DNA of 64,000 nucleotides. It comes from Gemmatimonadota bacterium. GTDB taxonomy: Bacteria; Gemmatimonadota; Gemmatimonadetes; Gemmatimonadales; GWC2-71-9. The position numbers were made by a program, and so were the translations under genes. The stretch covers positions 26,777-90,776 of the forward strand of contig JBDHBX010000015.1 in the NCBI GenBank assembly GCA_039592335.1. The letters run 5' to 3'. Positions 20,059 to 26,072 of this stretch are shown here, piece after piece (positions within the stretch are counted from its first letter, which is position 1; each line of letters opens with the position of its first letter). The notes beneath the pieces are model-generated. The model ran no database searches. It was not told the DNA's origin and was given only the letters and a program-made list of their open reading frames with translations.

Positions 20059-23000
20059 CTACCCCCTGGCCCGCGCCGCCGCCCGCCGGGCCTCGGGCGC
20101 ATCGGCCCCCAAATGAGCGGTGATCACCCTGAGCCCCTCGTCCAGGAACCACTGGGTTTCGGGCTCTCCCGAACGGCCCTGCGCCCGCAGCGCCGCCCCC
20201 CGAAGGCTCATTACCTCTCCGTGGCGCCAGTGCCCGGCGGGCAGCTCGGCCAGGTTCCGCTCGGCCTCGCGCAGCACCGCGTCGGCAGGCTCCGCCAGTC
20301 CCATTGTGAGGTACGCCTCGCCCAGGCACTGTAGCGTGTAGCCGATCCTGGGATGCGGCTCCGGCAGCTTCGCCCGCTCGGCGGCCAACACATCCCGCAG
20401 TAACGCGACGGCCTCGTCGGCCCTTCCCCGCCGCAGCAGCACCGCGGCCTGGTCACGCCGCACCTGCAGCACGTAGCGGTGGTTCTCGCGCAGCCGCTCC
20501 CCGGCAACGGCCTGGGCCTCATCGAGCAGACGCTCCGCCTCGGCGAGGCGTCCGCGGCGCAGCGCCACACCCGCCATTCGCTGCCGCGCGAGCATGCCGT
20601 AGATGCTCGCCGGTCCCGAGAGGCGCTGGTTCATGGCCACGGCAGAGTCCAGGAACACGCCCGCCCCGCGCAGTCGGCCAGTCTCCACCAATGGATCGGC
20701 CGAGCGAATCAGCGAGATGACGATCCCCGGGTGATCCCCGGCGTGACGCTCTCGCTTGGCCGCCAGCGCCGTGTCGAAGCGCGCCGACGCCTCGGCGAAG
20801 CGTCCCATTTCGAGCTCGATCGTGGCGAGCGCCTCCCGCAGCGTAGTGGAGGTCACATGCTCGGGTCCAAGTTTACCGTTCGCCCGCTCGAGCCCGGCCC
20901 TCAGGATCGGCTCCGCCGCGCCGTAACGGCCGAGCCCCGAGAGCAGCAGCCCCCACTGCGCCATCGCCTCGATCACGTCGGGGTGATCGTCCTCGTACAG
21001 CGCGACACGCATGTCGTAACCCCCCTTGACCAGCGGCTCGGCCGAGGCGTACTGCTCGCGCAGCCGACGGATCATGCCCACGTTGAGGAGCGCCGATGCC
21101 GCCAAGGGATGCGGCCGCGCAGCGTCGTACCCCTCGAGCGTGGACACGAACAGCGCCTCCGCCTCGTCGAACGCGCCCTGGTCGTGGTAGGTCGCTGCTA
21201 GCCCCAACAGCGTCGCCGCCACGGTGACCTCGCTGCCGGGCAGCGCGCGCTGGCCGTCGACCGCGGCCTGGAACAACCCCGCCGCATCATCGTAGTGACC
21301 CGCGCTTCGCAGCTCGAACGCCAGGCTCGCCTGCGTCGCCGCCAACAGCGAGTCCGGCCCGGCGAGTGCGTCCTCCCGAATTGCGATCGCCCGGCGGAAT
21401 TGCTCAATCGCTTCCTCTCGCCTGCCCTCCGCGGCGAGGAGCTCCCCCAGCCGGCTCGCGCTCTCCGAGACCTCGAGGCTTGCGGTGCCGTAGTACTCCT
21501 CGCGCAGCACGAGGGAGCGCAGCACCGTTTCCTCCGCCCGCTCGAGCAGGCCGAGGTGCTCGTACACCCGTGCCACCTCGAGCAGCATTGCCGACTGCAC
21601 GTCGGGCTGGTCGGCTAGCTCGTCCATGACGCGCTGGATGCCCCGATCGAGGATCTGCCGCGCGCTGATCGAGTCGCCCAGCGCCTCGTTGGGATCGGTG
21701 AGACGGAAGACCTCGACCATCATTCCCGCGACGCGCGCCGCACGGTCGCGCTGCACCGAGGCGATGGCCGCCTGCTCGGCAGCCTCGCGCGCCTGCCAGG
21801 TGGTCGCCACGAGACCGCCGCCGAGGGAGAACACGATCGCAGCGGCCGCGCCCATCATCACCCGATGCCGCGCCACAAACTTGCGGGTGCGGTACAGCGC
21901 CGAGTCGCCCCGCGCGTCCACCGGGTCGCCATCGAGGTGCCGTTCCACGTCGCTCGCGATCTGCTCGGCCGAGGCGTAGCGCCGCGCCGGCTCCTTGCGC
22001 AGCGCCATGCACACGATGTTGTCCACGTCGCCGCGCAGCCGGCGGCGGAGGTAATTCGCGCGCGTGCGATACGCGAACCGGTGCGCCTCGCTTTCCCCTC
22101 CGCTGCCGCCCATGAGGTGTGCGCGGGGGTCGCCGTCGAGCTGCGCCTGCCCATCGCGCTTCGTGGTGCCACCCGTGGGCTGCGCTAGCTTGGGCGGAAC
22201 CACCGCCGCGCTCGGCCTCGGCGCCTCCTCTTCCAGGATGATCCGCTCCCAGTCGTACGGCGCGCGACTGGCCAGCTGGAACGGAACGCGCCCCGTGAGC
22301 AGCTCGAACAGAACCACGCCAAGCCCGTACACATCGGTGGCCGTGGTGATCAGATCGCCCTGTACCTGCTCGGGGCTCGCGTACTCCGGGGTCATGAGCC
22401 GGAGGCCAGTACGGGTCAGCGGCGCGGAGTGACCCAGGGCGGCGGGGTCGAGCATCTTGGCGATCCCGAAATCCAGCAGCTTCACAACCCCCTCGTCGGT
22501 CACGAGGATGTTGGAGGGCTTGAGGTCGCGGTGGACTACAAGATTGCGGTGGGCGTAGTGCACCGCGCGGGCCACGGTGCAGAACAGGCGCAGGCGGTCG
22601 TCGACGTTGAGCCGATGCTTGTCGCAGTACTCGTCGATCGGCAGGCCGTCCACATGCTCCATCACGAGGTACTGGCGACCGTCCTCCGTGATGCCACCGT
22701 CCAACAGGCGCGCGACGTGCGGGTGATCGAGCGAGGCGAGGATGCGCCGCTCGGCCTCGAAGCGGCGGTGCAGCTCGTCCATCCCGGGACCACCTGGGAT
22801 CACCTTCACCGCGACCTTGCGGCGGAACGCGGCATCGTCGGACTCGGCCAGGTACACCACGCCCATGCCGCCGCGCCCCACTTCCGAGATGATGCAGTAC
22901 CGCCCGATGCGCTCGCCCACCGACGACTCGCGCACCGCGTTGGCCGCCGCGGCGGTGGGATCGCTCTCCAGCACCCCCTCGGCGCGGTCATGGGCCGCGA

Positions 23001-23136
23001 GCAACGCCCCGACTTCGGCGCGCAGCTCCGCATCGTCCGCGCAGAAGCGGTCGAGCAGCTTGGCGCGATCGCTCACCTCGCGCTCGAGCGCCTCCTCGAA
23101 GAGGGCTTCGACCTGCCGGCGGCGCTCAGGCTTCAT
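20059..23136 (-). CDS. Ser/Thr protein kinase with TM segment and long TPR region
   Basis: Start ATG 23136 forms an ATGA overlap with the sigma gene stop. Motifs: GRGGMGVVYLA, VAVKVI, HRDLKPSNILV, DFGIAK, TPEYASPEQ. About 600 aa of TPR-like repeats follow. Confidence 0.85.
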   Translation of the reverse strand: MKPERRRQVEALFEEALEREVSDRAKLLDRFCADDAELRAEVGALLAAHDRAEGVLESDPTAAAANAVRESSVGERIGRYCIISEVGRGGMGVVYLAESDDAAFRRKVAVKVIPGGPGMDELHRRFEAERRILASLDHPHVARLLDGGITEDGRQYLVMEHVDGLPIDEYCDKHRLNVDDRLRLFCTVARAVHYAHRNLVVHRDLKPSNILVTDEGVVKLLDFGIAKMLDPAALGHSAPLTRTGLRLMTPEYASPEQVQGDLITTATDVYGLGVVLFELLTGRVPFQLASRAPYDWERIILEEEAPRPSAAVVPPKLAQPTGGTTKRDGQAQLDGDPRAHLMGGSGGESEAHRFAYRTRANYLRRRLRGDVDNIVCMALRKEPARRYASAEQIASDVERHLDGDPVDARGDSALYRTRKFVARHRVMMGAAAAIVFSLGGGLVATTWQAREAAEQAAIASVQRDRAARVAGMMVEVFRLTDPNEALGDSISARQILDRGIQRVMDELADQPDVQSAMLLEVARVYEHLGLLERAEETVLRSLVLREEYYGTASLEVSESASRLGELLAAEGRREEAIEQFRRAIAIREDALAGPDSLLAATQASLAFELRSAGHYDDAAGLFQAAVDGQRALPGSEVTVAATLLGLAATYHDQGAFDEAEALFVSTLEGYDAARPHPLAASALLNVGMIRRLREQYASAEPLVKGGYDMRVALYEDDHPDVIEAMAQWGLLLSGLGRYGAAEPILRAGLERANGKLGPEHVTSTTLREALATIELEMGRFAEASARFDTALAAKRERHAGDHPGIVISLIRSADPLVETGRLRGAGVFLDSAVAMNQRLSGPASIYGMLARQRMAGVALRRGRLAEAERLLDEAQAVAGERLRENHRYVLQVRRDQAAVLLRRGRADEAVALLRDVLAAERAKLPEPHPRIGYTLQCLGEAYLTMGLAEPADAVLREAERNLAELPAGHWRHGEVMSLRGAALRAQGRSGEPETQWFLDEGLRVITAHLGADAPEARRAAARARG

Positions 23137-23720
23137 GCCTCGGGGGGTGCGCCTTCGGGATAGAGCGTCTTGTAGAGCCAGGCGCGGGCTTTCACCCAGT
23201 CGCGGCGGACCGTGCGGTCGGTGACGCCCAGGACCTCCGCGATCTCCTTCTCCTCCATACCGCCGAAGAACCGGTACTCCACTACCTGGCGCTGCCGGGG
23301 ATCCAATTCCTCGAGCGCGGCATCGAGCGCCAGCATCTCGTCGGGCTTGAACTCCAGGGCGTCGTCGCCCTCGCCCAGGGTGGTGCGCACCCATTCCCCT
23401 TCCCGCTTGAGGGCCTTCTTGCGGCGGGCGTGATCCACCAGGACCTGTCGCATGGCGCGGGACGCGATGGCAAGGAAGTGTGCCCGGTCGGCGGCGGCCG
23501 CCGCTCCGCCACCCGCGAGCTTGAGATAGGCCTCGTGCACCAGCTCCGTGGGACGCAGGGTGTGACCCGCGCGCTCCACGCCCAGCCTGCGACGGGCCAC
23601 ATGGCGTAGCTCGTCGTAGACCAGGGGCATGAGCTGGTCGAGGGCTTGGGAGTCACCGGCACGGGCGGCGTCGAGCAGCCGCGTCACGTCACCGGGAGGC
23701 CCGGCTTCTCCCGCTTGCAT
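23133..23720 (-). CDS. ECF sigma factor of the kinase-associated type (TIGR02999-like)
   Basis: DVTRLLDAARAGDSQALDQLMPLVYDELRHVARRRL...HTLRPTELVHEAYLKL...HFLAIASRAMRQVLVDHARRKKALKR, and region 4 FFGGMEEKEIAEVLGVTDRTVRRDWVKARAWL. Confidence 0.85.
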   Translation of the reverse strand: MQAGEAGPPGDVTRLLDAARAGDSQALDQLMPLVYDELRHVARRRLGVERAGHTLRPTELVHEAYLKLAGGGAAAAADRAHFLAIASRAMRQVLVDHARRKKALKREGEWVRTTLGEGDDALEFKPDEMLALDAALEELDPRQRQVVEYRFFGGMEEKEIAEVLGVTDRTVRRDWVKARAWLYKTLYPEGAPPEA

Positions 23721-23835: not shown

Positions 23836-24072
23836 TCAGGCCGCCAGGGGTTGGGCCGGGCGCCCCGCGCAGTACAGGCACTCCGCTTCATCGCAGTGCC
23901 GCTCCAGCCAGCGGTTGCACGCCGGACAGAACAGCGCCAGGTGCGCGAGGCTGAACACGATCTGCGTATCGCAGTCCTGGCACTGGGCATCCTGCGCGAC
24001 CCAGCCCGCCACAGTGCGCGAGCCGATCGTCACGGTGTCGTCGTCGCGGTTCTCGATGACCTGCAGTGGCAT
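23836..24072 (-). CDS. Small Cys-rich zinc-ribbon-like protein
   Basis: 78 aa with CQDC..(14)..CPAC plus CDEAECLYC. No family recognised. Confidence 0.4.
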   Translation of the reverse strand: MPLQVIENRDDDTVTIGSRTVAGWVAQDAQCQDCDTQIVFSLAHLALFCPACNRWLERHCDEAECLYCAGRPAQPLAA

Positions 24073-24147
24073 GGCTCCCCCCCAAGAAGCCCTTCGCTAG
24101 GTGATGCGCAGTTAGGGGGGAAGAGCGGACAGGCGCCGGTCACTGCC

Positions 24148-24480
24148 TCAGTTGTACACCAGAAGGGCGTGATGTCGGCACCCTGTGCAGTGCACCTCCT
24201 GCATGCGGGTGCCCTCGTGGGTCTCCGCCGGGCCGAGCATCAGGTTGCCGTCGCACACGGGGCAGGCTGCCTCGAGGTTGGGACGGAGCACCATTTCGCG
24301 GATCAGCAGCCCCTCGGCCACCGAGAACTGCTGCGCCAGCGGACGGCGACGGTCCTGCTTGCGGCGGCGGTCGTGATCGCCAGACCGGGTCTTGCGGCGC
24401 CGGTCCTGCCCGGATCGGCGGTCGATGCCCGAGCGGAGGTCTGCGAGGAAGCGCCGGACTCCGTCGTCAGAAAGGGGCAT
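24148..24480 (-). CDS. Small protein with four DRR(R) repeats and a C-terminal zinc ribbon
   Basis: 110 aa with IDRRSGQDRRRKTRSGDHDRRRKQDRRR followed by CPVC..(22)..CTGC. Confidence 0.4.
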   Translation of the reverse strand: MPLSDDGVRRFLADLRSGIDRRSGQDRRRKTRSGDHDRRRKQDRRRPLAQQFSVAEGLLIREMVLRPNLEAACPVCDGNLMLGPAETHEGTRMQEVHCTGCRHHALLVYN

Positions 24481-24560
24481 GGGCCTCTCTCATGCTGCCG
24501 AGAATCACCCGCAAGCGTACGCCCAGGGAGCGGGCCCGGCAAGGTGGGCGGTGGCGCCCC

Positions 24561-25565
24561 CTAGAACACCCCCTCCCGCACCTGCCCCCTCTTGAGTCCC
24601 TTCCTGAGCGCGACCACGTCATCCACCTCGACCGACTCGTTGTCGGGGAGCGGCACGTCACCCTTCTCCTTGCCCAGGTGGGCCACGCTCTTGAGCTTCT
24701 CGAGAATGCTGGAGCCCTCGAGCGCCTTCGACCCTTCCGAGTAGTAGTCGAACCACGGAATACCGGCGCTCTGATACTCCTTTGCCGTGGGCGGCACGGT
24801 GGGGGGGGCGCTCCCGGTGATCGCGCGCCACGTCATCGAGTTGGCGATGTGCACGAAGCAGCGCGCGCGGTGGCGCGTATCCCAATCCTCGAGACGGTAG
24901 GGATCGTCGTAGATCTCCTGCCGCATGCGCCCGCCCGGGGCGAGGCCCATGTCGTACCCCGCGCCGGTCACGTGGAGCGCCATGTCTGCCGCGAACACCG
25001 AGCGGGCCAGCACCGCGCTGCGCGACCGCATCCGCTCGTACGCCTCCGCCTTCATGGGAAAGACCTCAATCTGCAACCCGCCGTACTCGGGCTCGCCGGT
25101 GATTTGCTCCTCGGCGCTGTACCCGCTGCCCAGCGGCATCGCCACGAACTGGCGGATGATCCCCTTCTCCACGCAGTAGCCGTCGAGCCACGGCTGCTCG
25201 GGCACCGCCATGTAATCCTGCGGATCGCGGTGGAGCCCGTCGCTCCATCCCTCACCGGTCACCGCGTTGATCTTCCCGGCCGCCACCTTCACCGCAAACG
25301 GAAAGTCGCCGCCGAAGTTGAGCCACAGCGCCTCCGACTGGTACATGGGGAGCGTCACGCCGCCGTGCTCGATCCATGGCCGCGGCACGCGCGAGGCGAA
25401 GTCGTCCACGTGGCGAATCGGGAACCGTCCCAACCCGGCCGGCAGCGGGTACTCCCGGTCGTCGTCGGGAATGCGCAGCGTGCGCTGGAAGTCGATGCGC
25501 ATCTCTGCCCGGTTGTGGACTTCGGGCAGTGAGATGACCAATCGGTCGTGACGAAGCTCGATCAT
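24561..25565 (-). CDS. Conserved-looking protein of unknown function
   Basis: Start ATG 25565 lies 5 nt after GGGGGAGG. 334 aa with RIPDDDREYPLPAGLGRFPIRHVDDF, LPMYQSEALWLNF and IRQFVAMPLGSGYSAEEQITG. I could not assign a family. Confidence 0.55.
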   Translation of the reverse strand: MIELRHDRLVISLPEVHNRAEMRIDFQRTLRIPDDDREYPLPAGLGRFPIRHVDDFASRVPRPWIEHGGVTLPMYQSEALWLNFGGDFPFAVKVAAGKINAVTGEGWSDGLHRDPQDYMAVPEQPWLDGYCVEKGIIRQFVAMPLGSGYSAEEQITGEPEYGGLQIEVFPMKAEAYERMRSRSAVLARSVFAADMALHVTGAGYDMGLAPGGRMRQEIYDDPYRLEDWDTRHRARCFVHIANSMTWRAITGSAPPTVPPTAKEYQSAGIPWFDYYSEGSKALEGSSILEKLKSVAHLGKEKGDVPLPDNESVEVDDVVALRKGLKRGQVREGVF

Positions 25566-25610
25566 GTTTCCTCCCCCGTGCAAGTGAGGCTACCACGCGG
25601 GTGGGACACC

Positions 25611-25967
25611 TCACCAGGTCCCGTCGCGCACCTCACGCACGATTCTGAGCACGGCATGGTCCGGCATGTCCTTGAGCTGCCGGATCGCCGCGGCGAACAG
25701 TTCGGGCCGCTTGCGAATCGCCTCCTGCAAGTCGGACGACACCTTCCCGGCCAGCGCCAACAGCACGTCCGCATCCTCACGCAGCTCCCGCGCCAGCGCC
25801 ACGATCTTGGCCTCAGAGGGTGGAGGCGCCTCACCACGCTCTACCTTGCTCAGGAACGAGGGCTCGACCCCGATCCGCGCGGCCACTTGGCGCACGGAAA
25901 ACGTTGCGTCGCTTTGCCTTAGCGCCTCACGCCGGTCGCGGACATAGGTGCCGAAGGTGTCGGTCAT
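25611..25967 (-). CDS. XRE-family helix-turn-helix transcriptional regulator
   Basis: 118 aa with FSVRQVAARIGVEPSFLSKVERGEAPPPS (HTH_3 pattern). Confidence 0.75.
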   Translation of the reverse strand: MTDTFGTYVRDRREALRQSDATFSVRQVAARIGVEPSFLSKVERGEAPPPSEAKIVALARELREDADVLLALAGKVSSDLQEAIRKRPELFAAAIRQLKDMPDHAVLRIVREVRDGTW

Positions 25968-25979
25968 GACGTATACTAT

Positions 25980-25993
25980 GTACTACTTAGTAC
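25980..25993. promoter_or_regulatory. AT-rich inverted repeat (candidate XRE operator) in divergent promoter region
   Basis: GTACTA-CT-TAGTAC lies 13 nt upstream of the XRE start codon, next to a GTATAC palindrome. It sits in a locally AT-rich 40-nt patch of an otherwise GC-rich window. Confidence 0.4.
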
Positions 25994-26072
25994 ACGGTTT
26001 GTCAACTCACCTCGCCCCTTGTGGACCCGCGATAGGCGACCAAGGTTATCCCCTCCCCCGGAGGAGGTCCTC

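What the first reader, a model, noticed from the sequence alone, without database searches (positions are those of the whole stretch)
23836..25967. XRE-headed string of unassignable proteins: a 334-aa protein plus two zinc-ribbon mini-proteins
The minus-strand series is: XRE regulator (25611-25967), a 45-nt gap, a 334-aa protein with distinctive motifs, an 80-nt gap, a 110-aa protein, a 75-nt gap, and a 78-aa Cys-rich protein. The 334-aa protein has RIPDDDREYPLPAGLGRFP, LPMYQSEALWLNF, IRQFVAMPLGSGY and IPWFDYY, but I recognise no enzyme signature. The 110-aa protein carries four DRR(R) repeats and then CPVC...CTGC. The 78-aa protein carries CQDC...CPAC. None of the three downstream genes matches a family I can name. 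A dedicated repressor with an AT-rich operator heads the string. Among the loci here, this is the most likely to encode a function with no description at all.
Basis: inference. Interest (0 to 1): 0.55.

Follow-up and report, generated by a model that had tools for sequence, protein, structure and literature searches.

The report
Conserved repressor plus unknown-protein gene pair
The four-gene "string" is really a two-gene cassette: a small DNA-binding repressor and a 334-residue protein from a very large, undescribed family. The pair recurs with its promoter and operator across many bacterial phyla, while the two small cysteine-rich genes are local neighbours.

Summary
The interpretation needs re-cutting.

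- **Conserved unit.** It is XRE (25611-25967) plus P334 (24561-25565). XRE lies directly upstream on the same strand in 78 of 80 species genomes from many phyla.
- **Regulation.** The pair carries a conserved TTGACA promoter, a three-half-site operator and a mostly leaderless start.
- **The mini-proteins.** P110 and P78 occur only in the closest Gemmatimonadota relatives and can be separated from the pair.
- **P334.** It has no Pfam, NCBIfam, PADLOC, PHROG or PDB-sequence match. A confident model (pLDDT 86.6) has no PDB fold match. The family spans thousands of clusters. Protist members carry ubiquitin, one also a RING finger; giant viruses hold structural relatives. A proteobacterial clade pairs it with a signal-less astacin-like protease.
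- **Shared tail.** XRE ends in VRDGxW, mimicking the family's own C-terminal tail (here VREGxF).

Most likely this is an autorepressed regulator-plus-effector cassette whose release involves the shared tail. The biochemical activity is unknown.

The parts
25971..26005 (-). Promoter and operator of the cassette. The -35 TTGACA is at 26005-26000, followed by a 17-nt spacer and a -10-like TACATA at 25982-25977. The operator GTGTACTAAGTAGTACA is at 25995-25979, with a third half-site TAGTATAC at 25978-25971. The ATG lies 9 nt after the -10, so the mRNA is near-leaderless.
   Evidence: Sequence read. The 17-mer is unique in the window. The same -35 / GTGTA(C/G)T..GTAGTA(C/T)A / TACTACAC architecture appears in 70 assessable loci from many phyla, mostly 7-12 nt from the start codon. 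The simple promoter scanner did not call it because the -10 lacks a T at position 6.
25611..25967 (-). XRE-family repressor of 118 aa: an N-terminal HTH, a helical C-terminal region and an invariant C-terminal tail ...VREVRDGTW.
   Evidence: HTH_31 1.5e-9 and HTH_3 2.3e-6. PADLOC capH HMM 8.3e-11 over residues 10-112. Directly upstream of P334 in 78/80 genomes at 58-94% identity. Tail V[RK]DGxW at the C-terminus in 74/75. D115, G116 and W118 are invariant down to 40% identity.
24561..25565 (-). P334, the 334-aa payload protein of an undescribed family. It has two beta-rich domains (about 1-183 and 204-329) joined by a disordered variable linker (184-203). The C-terminal tail is ...QVREGVF.
   Evidence: No family or PDB match. 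Model pLDDT 86.6, pTM 0.86. No PDB fold match: best E 0.05, TM at most 0.2. At least 7,994 90%-identity clusters in each of two clades. 3,861 50%-identity clusters. At least 588 species genomes.
24148..24480 (-). P110, a lineage-specific neighbour that is not part of the conserved cassette. It has DRR repeats and a CxxC...CxxC C-terminus.
   Evidence: Found only in L007, L008 and L009 (81-86% identity). dN/dS 0.20-0.25. Separated from P334 by an opposite-strand ORF in L009. Only sub-threshold zinc-ribbon hits.
23836..24072 (-). P78, a lineage-specific Cys-rich small protein. It travels with the downstream ECF sigma/kinase pair rather than with XRE-P334.
   Evidence: Found only in L009 (83% identity), again directly upstream of the ECF sigma gene. 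Absent in L007 and L008, where the sigma/kinase pair is also absent. dN/dS 0.40 from one comparison. phrog_4875 (unknown function) 3.9e-5.
20059..23720 (-). Downstream ECF sigma factor (23133-23720) and Ser/Thr kinase with TPR repeats (20059-23136). This is context, not part of the cassette.
   Evidence: ORFs. Pfam labels Sigma70_ECF and Pkinase/TPR on the identical contig L005.

Best explanation
The functional unit is a self-contained, horizontally spread two-gene cassette.

Shown. An XRE-family repressor gene and P334 sit 7-121 nt apart (median 30; two loci at 412 and 599 nt) on one strand. They lie behind a sigma-70-type promoter whose spacer, -10 and start region are covered by a conserved operator of two direct half-sites and one inverted half-site. 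In most genomes the XRE mRNA is leaderless or nearly so. P334 belongs to an old, very large, undescribed family with two beta-rich domains and a disordered linker. XRE carries at its extreme C-terminus a copy of the family's own tail motif (hydrophobic-x-[DE]-G-x-[WF]-COOH).

Inferred. XRE oligomers sit on the operator and keep both genes nearly off. The shared tail is the release or coupling device. Either it docks into a site on P334, so that XRE competes with P334's own tail, or it is read by one host factor such as an AAA+ protease, as with the Trp-ended tail of HipB. Loss or capture of XRE then gives a burst of P334, which is the effector. Its biochemical activity is not known. Contexts elsewhere place the family among regulated stress or conflict effectors, and they suggest that the linker between its two domains is a control point. 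Those contexts are a signal-less astacin-like protease partner, ubiquitin inserted in the linker, RING, UBA, ZZ, VWA and kinase/FGE-sulfatase fusions, and replacement of XRE by a PafBC-like WYL pair.

P110 and P78 are neighbours specific to this Gemmatimonadota lineage.
For: - **Pair conservation.** XRE is directly upstream on the same strand in 78/80 species loci. No other gene family recurs. The pairing persists down to 38-51% P334 identity in cultured Euzebya pacifica and Bosea sp. RAC05 and in 8 of 16 IMG/VR loci.
- **Promoter and operator.** They are conserved across phyla and unique in the window. The half-site changes together with the HTH in Euzebya and Bosea, to TGTTCA/TGAACA.
- **Purifying selection.** dN/dS is 0.06-0.16.
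- **Tails.** XRE has V[RK]DGxW at the C-terminus in 74/75. P334 has VREGx[FW] in 51/80 strictly and 62/80 loosely. The tail is also present in family members without an XRE: Streptomyces, Mycolicibacterium and viral contigs. XRE and P334 share no wider homology.
- **Repressor resemblance.** XRE matches the capH model over its full length.
- **Regulator swap.** In L079 a WYL-WCX (HTH_PafC) pair replaces XRE.
- **Other contexts.** Astacin+PPC is adjacent in all three gene contexts examined, five loci. Ubiquitin, RING, ZZ/UBA, VWA, kinase+FGE-sulfatase, Sel1 and DUF932 fusions occur. Giant-virus relatives exist.
- **Precedent.** HipB is an XRE-family antitoxin with a disordered 16-residue tail ending in a conserved Trp, and that tail is required for Lon degradation (PMC3376134).
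Against: - No experiment or complex prediction supports tail docking or tail-dependent proteolysis.
- The tail occurs in family members that have no XRE. Its primary role is therefore intrinsic to P334 and need not involve XRE.
- P334 is unusually conserved for a conflict or toxin gene: 56-70% identity across phyla and about 46% to protists. That fits a constrained housekeeping-like activity better.
- The family is rare on plasmids (6 records) and phages (2 records) and has no PADLOC hit.
- The regulator swap rests on a single locus.
- The window holds no second operator, so nothing is known about a wider regulon.
- No sigma-70 promoter was called by the generic scanner.
Confidence: 0.5

Rival explanations
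1. Type II toxin-antitoxin module of the HipBA kind. P334 is a growth-arresting toxin. XRE is its labile antitoxin and co-repressor, neutralising it through the C-terminal tail.
For: Antitoxin-first two-gene operon, a small HTH protein and an operator over the promoter. Patchy, cross-phylum distribution in varying genomic contexts. HipB precedent for a Trp-ended degron tail.
Against: Intact P334 homologues exist without any adjacent XRE: L072, L079, the actinobacterial members and the whole astacin-linked clade. The family is therefore not intrinsically lethal. Sequence conservation is far above that usual for toxins. There is no match to any toxin family and none in PADLOC.
Confidence: 0.17
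2. P334 is the sensor or anti-repressor rather than the payload. On sensing a signal it captures the XRE tail and lifts repression of an XRE regulon located elsewhere in the genome.
For: XRE carries a copy of the P334-family tail. Both proteins are strongly conserved and their divergence is correlated (r = 0.67).
Against: Only one operator copy occurs in 64 kb. No conserved third gene lies near the pair. The family functions without XRE in many lineages.
Confidence: 0.13
3. P334 is an ordinary but unannotated housekeeping or stress enzyme that happens to have a local XRE autoregulator. The shared tail is a convergent stability signal of no regulatory meaning.
For: Very strong purifying selection and conservation. 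Stable synteny within the close Gemmatimonadota relatives. Rare on mobile elements.
Against: Identity ranking is not congruent with phylum, implying horizontal transfer. The partner varies between clades: XRE, astacin-like protease or WYL pair. Domain fusions are typical of signalling or conflict proteins. The six-residue tail of XRE is invariant down to 40% identity.
Confidence: 0.15
4. One reading: XRE, P334, P110 and P78 form one four-gene operon with a single undescribed function.
For: Same strand, short gaps and no predicted terminator between them in this window. All four are present in L009.
Against: P110 and P78 are absent from 77 and 79 of the 80 species loci. In L009 an opposite-strand ORF splits the string. 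P78 co-occurs with the ECF sigma/kinase pair.
Confidence: 0.05

Closest known systems
HipB-HipA (type II toxin-antitoxin, E. coli)
   Same: An XRE-family HTH protein is encoded first. It autorepresses the operon through operators at the promoter. It ends in a tail with a conserved terminal Trp, and that tail controls its stability (PMC3376134).
   Different: The partner is not a HipA kinase and has no match to any Pfam family. The partner itself carries the same tail motif. P334 homologues occur without any XRE. Toxicity is untested.
CapH-CapP, and the related DdrO-IrrE and ImmR-ImmA repressor/protease pairs
   Same: XRE matches the PADLOC capH model over its full length at 8.3e-11. It is a small HTH protein with a helical C-terminal region, as CapH has for oligomerisation (bioRxiv 10.1101/2022.04.27.489752).
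   Different: No CapP/IrrE-type metallopeptidase is adjacent. P334 has no HExxH motif and no peptidase match. The pair is co-directional and self-contained rather than sitting upstream of a defence operon.
WYL-WCX regulators (PafBC, CapW, BrxR)
   Same: In L079 a PafBC-like WYL-WCX pair occupies the position that XRE holds elsewhere, directly upstream of the P334 homologue.
   Different: This is a single locus, and no WYL protein occurs in the window.
Protease-partnered effectors such as bacterial gasdermins
   Same: One large clade of the family is adjacent to a signal-less (probably cytoplasmic) astacin-like metallopeptidase. The family has a disordered inter-domain linker. In two protists that linker carries an inserted ubiquitin.
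   Different: There is no fold or sequence similarity to gasdermins or any PDB entry. Cleavage is not shown. The window's cassette has no protease.

Membership tests
XRE / HTH_31 transcriptional regulators (for the 118-aa protein) | Helix-turn-helix domain matching Pfam HTH_31 or HTH_3 above the gathering score | tested here: met
   HTH_31 38.4 bits (cut-off 27) and HTH_3 28.0 bits (cut-off 23).
CapH-CapP regulator pair | HTH protein resembling CapH over its full length | tested here: met
   PADLOC capH 8.3e-11, residues 10-112 against profile positions 8-93 of 103. Euzebya homologue 2.9e-8. No PDB sequence hit at E<0.01.
CapH-CapP regulator pair | Adjacent CapP/IrrE-type zinc metallopeptidase that cleaves the repressor | tested here: not met
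   The only recurrent neighbour is P334. P334 has no peptidase match and no HExxH motif.
CapH-CapP regulator pair | Located upstream of a known immune operon | tested here: not met
   No PADLOC hit for P334, P110 or P78 below E 0.05, and no conserved downstream genes.
Type II toxin-antitoxin system | Two adjacent co-directional genes with the small DNA-binding antitoxin first and an operator at the promoter | tested here: met
Type II toxin-antitoxin system | The toxin gene does not persist without its antitoxin | tested here: not met
   Intact homologues lacking an adjacent XRE: L072, L079, Streptomyces, Mycolicibacterium and the astacin-linked clade.
Type II toxin-antitoxin system | The toxin arrests growth and the antitoxin neutralises it by direct binding | not testable with these tools
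   Needs expression assays and binding or complex data.
Any described protein family or fold (for P334) | Significant match to Pfam, NCBIfam, PADLOC, PHROGs, PDB sequences or PDB structures | tested here: not met
   Zero hits. Foldseek against the PDB with a pLDDT 86.6 model gave a best E of 0.05 and TM at most 0.2. The only structural relatives are uncharacterised giant-virus proteins. AlphaFold DB was not available.
Zinc-ribbon families (for P110 and P78) | Match above the curated threshold to a zinc-ribbon model | tested here: not met
   All hits are below cut-off. A2L_zn_ribbon 14.6 bits against 22.9. ECs_2282_CxxC 18 against 37. Ribosomal_S27e 18.9 against 24.5. The CxxC pairs are visible in the sequence, but metal binding is untested.

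The most novel reading that the evidence does not exclude
The P334 family is an ancient, structurally new module that reads or uses a C-terminal hydrophobic-x-[DE]-G-x-[WF] tail. In bacteria a dedicated repressor has copied that tail, so that effector and repressor compete for one site in a tail-mimicry switch. Protists and possibly giant viruses wired the same module to ubiquitin, RING, UBA and ZZ domains, and one bacterial clade wired it to an astacin-like protease. This would point to a previously unrecognised link to regulated proteolysis shared by bacteria, protists and giant viruses.
Probability: 0.2. Interest if true: 0.8.

Novelty: new variant of a known kind. Interest (0 to 1): 0.62.

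Why it matters
A family with thousands of sequence clusters has no name, no Pfam model and no solved relative. It spans at least a dozen bacterial phyla, plus one MAG labelled archaeal, two protist transcriptomes and giant viruses. Here it comes with unusually clean handles for experiment:

- a fixed partner repressor;
- an operator conserved across phyla;
- a leaderless start;
- a six-residue tail shared by both proteins;
- two cultured hosts that carry the pair, Euzebya pacifica DY32-46 and Bosea sp. RAC05.

Working out what P334 does would annotate thousands of genes at once. It could also explain why eukaryotic and giant-virus versions are fused to ubiquitin-system domains.

Tried and rejected
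1. **Quartet as a unit.** Rejected by tblastn over 80 species loci and by ORF clustering.
2. **P334 as a CapP/IrrE-like protease.** It has no HExxH motif and no peptidase hit.
3. **P334 as a 2-oxoglutarate/Fe oxygenase**, via the H52-x-D54...H239 triad. H52 and D54 are not conserved in distant or eukaryotic homologues.
4. **Cys236 as a catalytic residue.** It is replaced by Phe or Val in distant homologues.
5. **Gasdermin-like or any known fold.** No Foldseek PDB match with either model.
6. **Homology between XRE and P334 beyond the tail.** hhalign probability was 0.4%.
7. **Tail motif exclusive to XRE-linked members.** Rejected: it also occurs in XRE-less actinobacterial and viral-contig members.
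8. **Mobile-element cargo.** Only 6 plasmid and 2 phage records carry it, plus 16 IMG/VR contigs of mixed nature.
9. **Literature.** Searches for a description of the family found none. These were keyword searches only.
10. **Calls that failed.** Two Pfam calls failed on coordinates. The apparent 733-aa fusion in L034 is a stop codon followed by an integrase-like ORF.
Full report
**1. Observation**

- XRE passes the Pfam thresholds for HTH_31 and HTH_3.
- P334, P110 and P78 reach no curated threshold in Pfam, NCBIfam, PADLOC or PHROGs. P110 and P78 give only sub-threshold zinc-ribbon-like hits.
- Coding signals are good: GC3 is 0.82-0.90.
- dN/dS against close relatives is 0.09-0.11 for XRE, 0.06-0.16 for P334 and 0.20-0.25 for P110. 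For P78 it is 0.40, from a single comparison.
- The window comes from a Gemmatimonadota metagenome-assembled genome. Identical contigs are in JGI samples, and relatives 92-95% identical are labelled Gemmatimonadota.

**2. What the conserved unit is**

It has 3,861 representatives at 50% identity with E<=0.001. Phyla include Gemmatimonadota, Planctomycetota, Verrucomicrobiota, Myxococcota, Acidobacteriota and Krumholzibacteriota.

In the best 80 species loci:
- A homologue of the window's XRE lies directly upstream on the same strand in 78 loci, at 58-94% identity. The gap is 7-121 nt in 75 of 77 loci (median 30), with two outliers at 412 and 599 nt.
- P110 appears in only three loci and P78 in one, all with P334 at least 85% identical.
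- Clustering all flanking ORFs found no other recurrent neighbour. The remaining clusters are overlapping-frame shadows of the two genes.
- In L009 an opposite-strand 815-aa ORF lies between P334 and P110. P78 remains directly upstream of the ECF sigma gene.
- In L007 and L008, P110 follows P334, but P78 and the sigma/kinase pair are absent.

The unit is therefore the pair, and the string of four is a local juxtaposition. The pairing extends to distant members. Examples are cultured Euzebya pacifica (P334 51% identical) and Bosea sp. RAC05 (38%), both annotated 'helix-turn-helix transcriptional regulator' plus 'hypothetical protein'. It also holds in 8 of 16 IMG/VR contigs.

**3. Regulatory region**

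Upstream of XRE the window reads TTGACA (26005-26000), a 17-nt spacer and TACATA (25982-25977). The ATG follows 9 nt later.

The spacer, the -10 and the start region carry GTGTACTAAGTAGTACA (25995-25979) plus TAGTATAC. This 17-mer is unique in the window.

The same layout recurs in 70 loci across phyla:
- The order is -35, then GTGTA(C/G)T(A/G)nGTAGTA(C/T)A, then (T/C)A(C/G)TACAC.
- This amounts to two direct half-sites and one inverted half-site. Many loci contain the 18-bp palindrome GTGTAGTATATACTACAC.
- In most loci the start codon lies 7-12 nt after the 17-mer, implying a leaderless or near-leaderless mRNA.
- About a dozen loci have a longer leader with a Shine-Dalgarno sequence.

In Euzebya and Bosea the half-site is TGTTCA/TGAACA instead, so the operator has changed along with the HTH. 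Autorepression is inferred from this architecture and has not been demonstrated. The generic promoter scan did not call the site.

**4. The P334 protein**

A first model from close homologues was weak (pLDDT 65). An alignment combining two clades gave pLDDT 86.6 and pTM 0.86. It shows two beta-rich parts joined by a disordered linker (184-203), with a flexible last five residues.
- Foldseek against the PDB found nothing significant (best E 0.05, TM at most 0.2).
- A family profile found no PDB sequence.
- Against predicted viral structures, the model matched uncharacterised giant-virus proteins: Harvfovirus at E 6.5e-23 with TMq 0.68, and a Hyperionvirus 'ubiquitin-like domain-containing protein' at 3.9e-9. 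RING-domain giant-virus proteins matched only above E 0.009.

Fused and eukaryotic relatives:
- An Entosiphon protein has the order ubiquitin, N-part, a ubiquitin-like tail ending RLRGG, C-part, RING.
- A Clastostelium protein has a complete ubiquitin inserted in the linker, just before the conserved MG(I/L)AAGG strand.
- Another representative carries ZZ and UBA domains.
- Bacterial fusions include VWA, Ser/Thr kinase plus FGE-sulfatase, Sel1 repeats and DUF932.

A second large clade has at least 7,997 clusters (Proteobacteria, Desulfobacterota and others). It lacks XRE. In all three gene contexts examined (five loci) it is adjacent to an astacin+PPC metallopeptidase without a signal peptide. 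Actinobacterial members have neither partner. UniRef calls some members 'integral membrane protein'; I saw no obvious membrane-spanning segment, and this was not computed.

**5. The shared tail**

- XRE ends in V[RK]DGxW-COOH in 74 of 75 loci. D, G and W are invariant down to 40% identity.
- P334 ends in VREGx[FW] in 51 of 80 loci, or 62 of 80 by a looser pattern.
- Euzebya has VADGDW and VTDGTW. Bosea has IDEGEW and VSEGVI.
- Outside the two gene families, about 5 of roughly 3,000 flanking ORFs end in [DE]Gx[FW].
- The two proteins share no wider homology.

The tail is also present in family members that have no XRE. Examples are Streptomyces (PVGDGDW), Mycolicibacterium (PVTDGSW) and several viral-contig members (VRDGKW, VKDGSW). 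Only the astacin-linked clade lacks it. The tail is therefore an intrinsic feature of the family, and the repressor carries a copy of it.

HipB offers a precedent. It is an XRE-family antitoxin with a disordered 16-residue tail ending in a conserved Trp, and that tail is required for Lon degradation (PMC3376134).

**6. Mechanism**

Shown:
- a conserved co-directional pair;
- a conserved operator over the promoter;
- strong purifying selection;
- the tail shared between repressor and payload.

Inferred:
- XRE autorepresses the operon.
- The tail couples XRE to P334, either by docking on P334 in competition with P334's own tail, or through a common reader such as a protease.
- Release of XRE gives a burst of P334, which is the effector.

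Three lines of evidence favour a regulated stress or conflict effector over a plain housekeeping enzyme:
- the capH-like profile match (CapH described in bioRxiv 10.1101/2022.04.27.489752);
- one locus where a PafBC-like WYL-WCX pair replaces XRE;
- the protease, ubiquitin, VWA and kinase/FGE-sulfatase contexts.

Identity ranking also does not follow phylum, which indicates horizontal transfer.

Against this:
- The family is very strongly conserved: 56-70% across phyla and about 46% to protists.
- It is rare on plasmids and phages.
- It is absent from PADLOC.

A strict toxin-antitoxin reading is weakened by intact XRE-less homologues.

**7. Comparison with known systems and novelty**

The regulatory logic resembles HipBA and CapH-type repressors. 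However, the defining partners (HipA kinase, CapP peptidase) are absent, so the pair is not a member of either system.

P334 belongs to no described family or solved fold. I found no paper describing it in keyword searches.

I rate the cassette a new variant of a known kind: a repressor-plus-effector operon. Its payload is genuinely undescribed, and the tail copied from payload to repressor is an unusual feature. Its biochemical function remains unknown.

Noticed in passing
window 20059-23720 (minus strand); also L009 5956-8867: An ECF sigma factor (Sigma70_ECF) overlaps by 4 nt a 1025-aa Ser/Thr kinase with TPR repeats. P78 sits directly upstream of this pair both here and in L009, so P78 may belong to that module.
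   Followed up: partly
L079 3909-6972: In one Gemmatimonadota genome the P334 homologue lacks both XRE and the tail. It follows a PafB/PafC-like pair of WYL-WCX regulators whose last gene abuts it.
   Followed up: partly
L095/L096 1-7087: The P334-homologue plus astacin pair lies next to contractile-injection-system genes (Tail_P2_I, DUF4815, eCIS_core). It could be cargo or coincidence.
   Followed up: no
L034 6001-8200: The P334 homologue ends at ...QVREG followed by a stop. An integrase-like ORF starts immediately after, suggesting that a mobile element inserted at the gene's 3' end.
   Followed up: no
L114 3025-3117 and L115 3041-3133: In Euzebya and Bosea the operator half-site is TGTTCA/TGAACA instead of GTGTAGTA/TACTACAC, while the TTGACA -35 and the short leader are kept. 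The operator and the HTH appear to have co-evolved.
   Followed up: partly
L108 2963-6951; L110, L111; L113: Distant P334 homologues on IMG/VR contigs lie near a phage terminase gpA (L108), downstream of PD-(D/E)XK nucleases (L110, L111), and next to a 1073-aa FGE-sulfatase-domain protein (L113).
   Followed up: partly
BFVD entry A0A1P8DIG7: An 88-residue viral protein is 46% identical to an 84-column stretch of P334 (TM 0.76 on the target). It may be a stand-alone fragment of the family in a virus.
   Followed up: no
window 24148-24480 (P110): The N-terminal half is a run of DRR(R)-containing repeats (IDRRSGQDRRRKTRSGDHDRRRKQDRRR). It is conserved in three relatives but matches no family, and its function is unknown.
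   Followed up: partly
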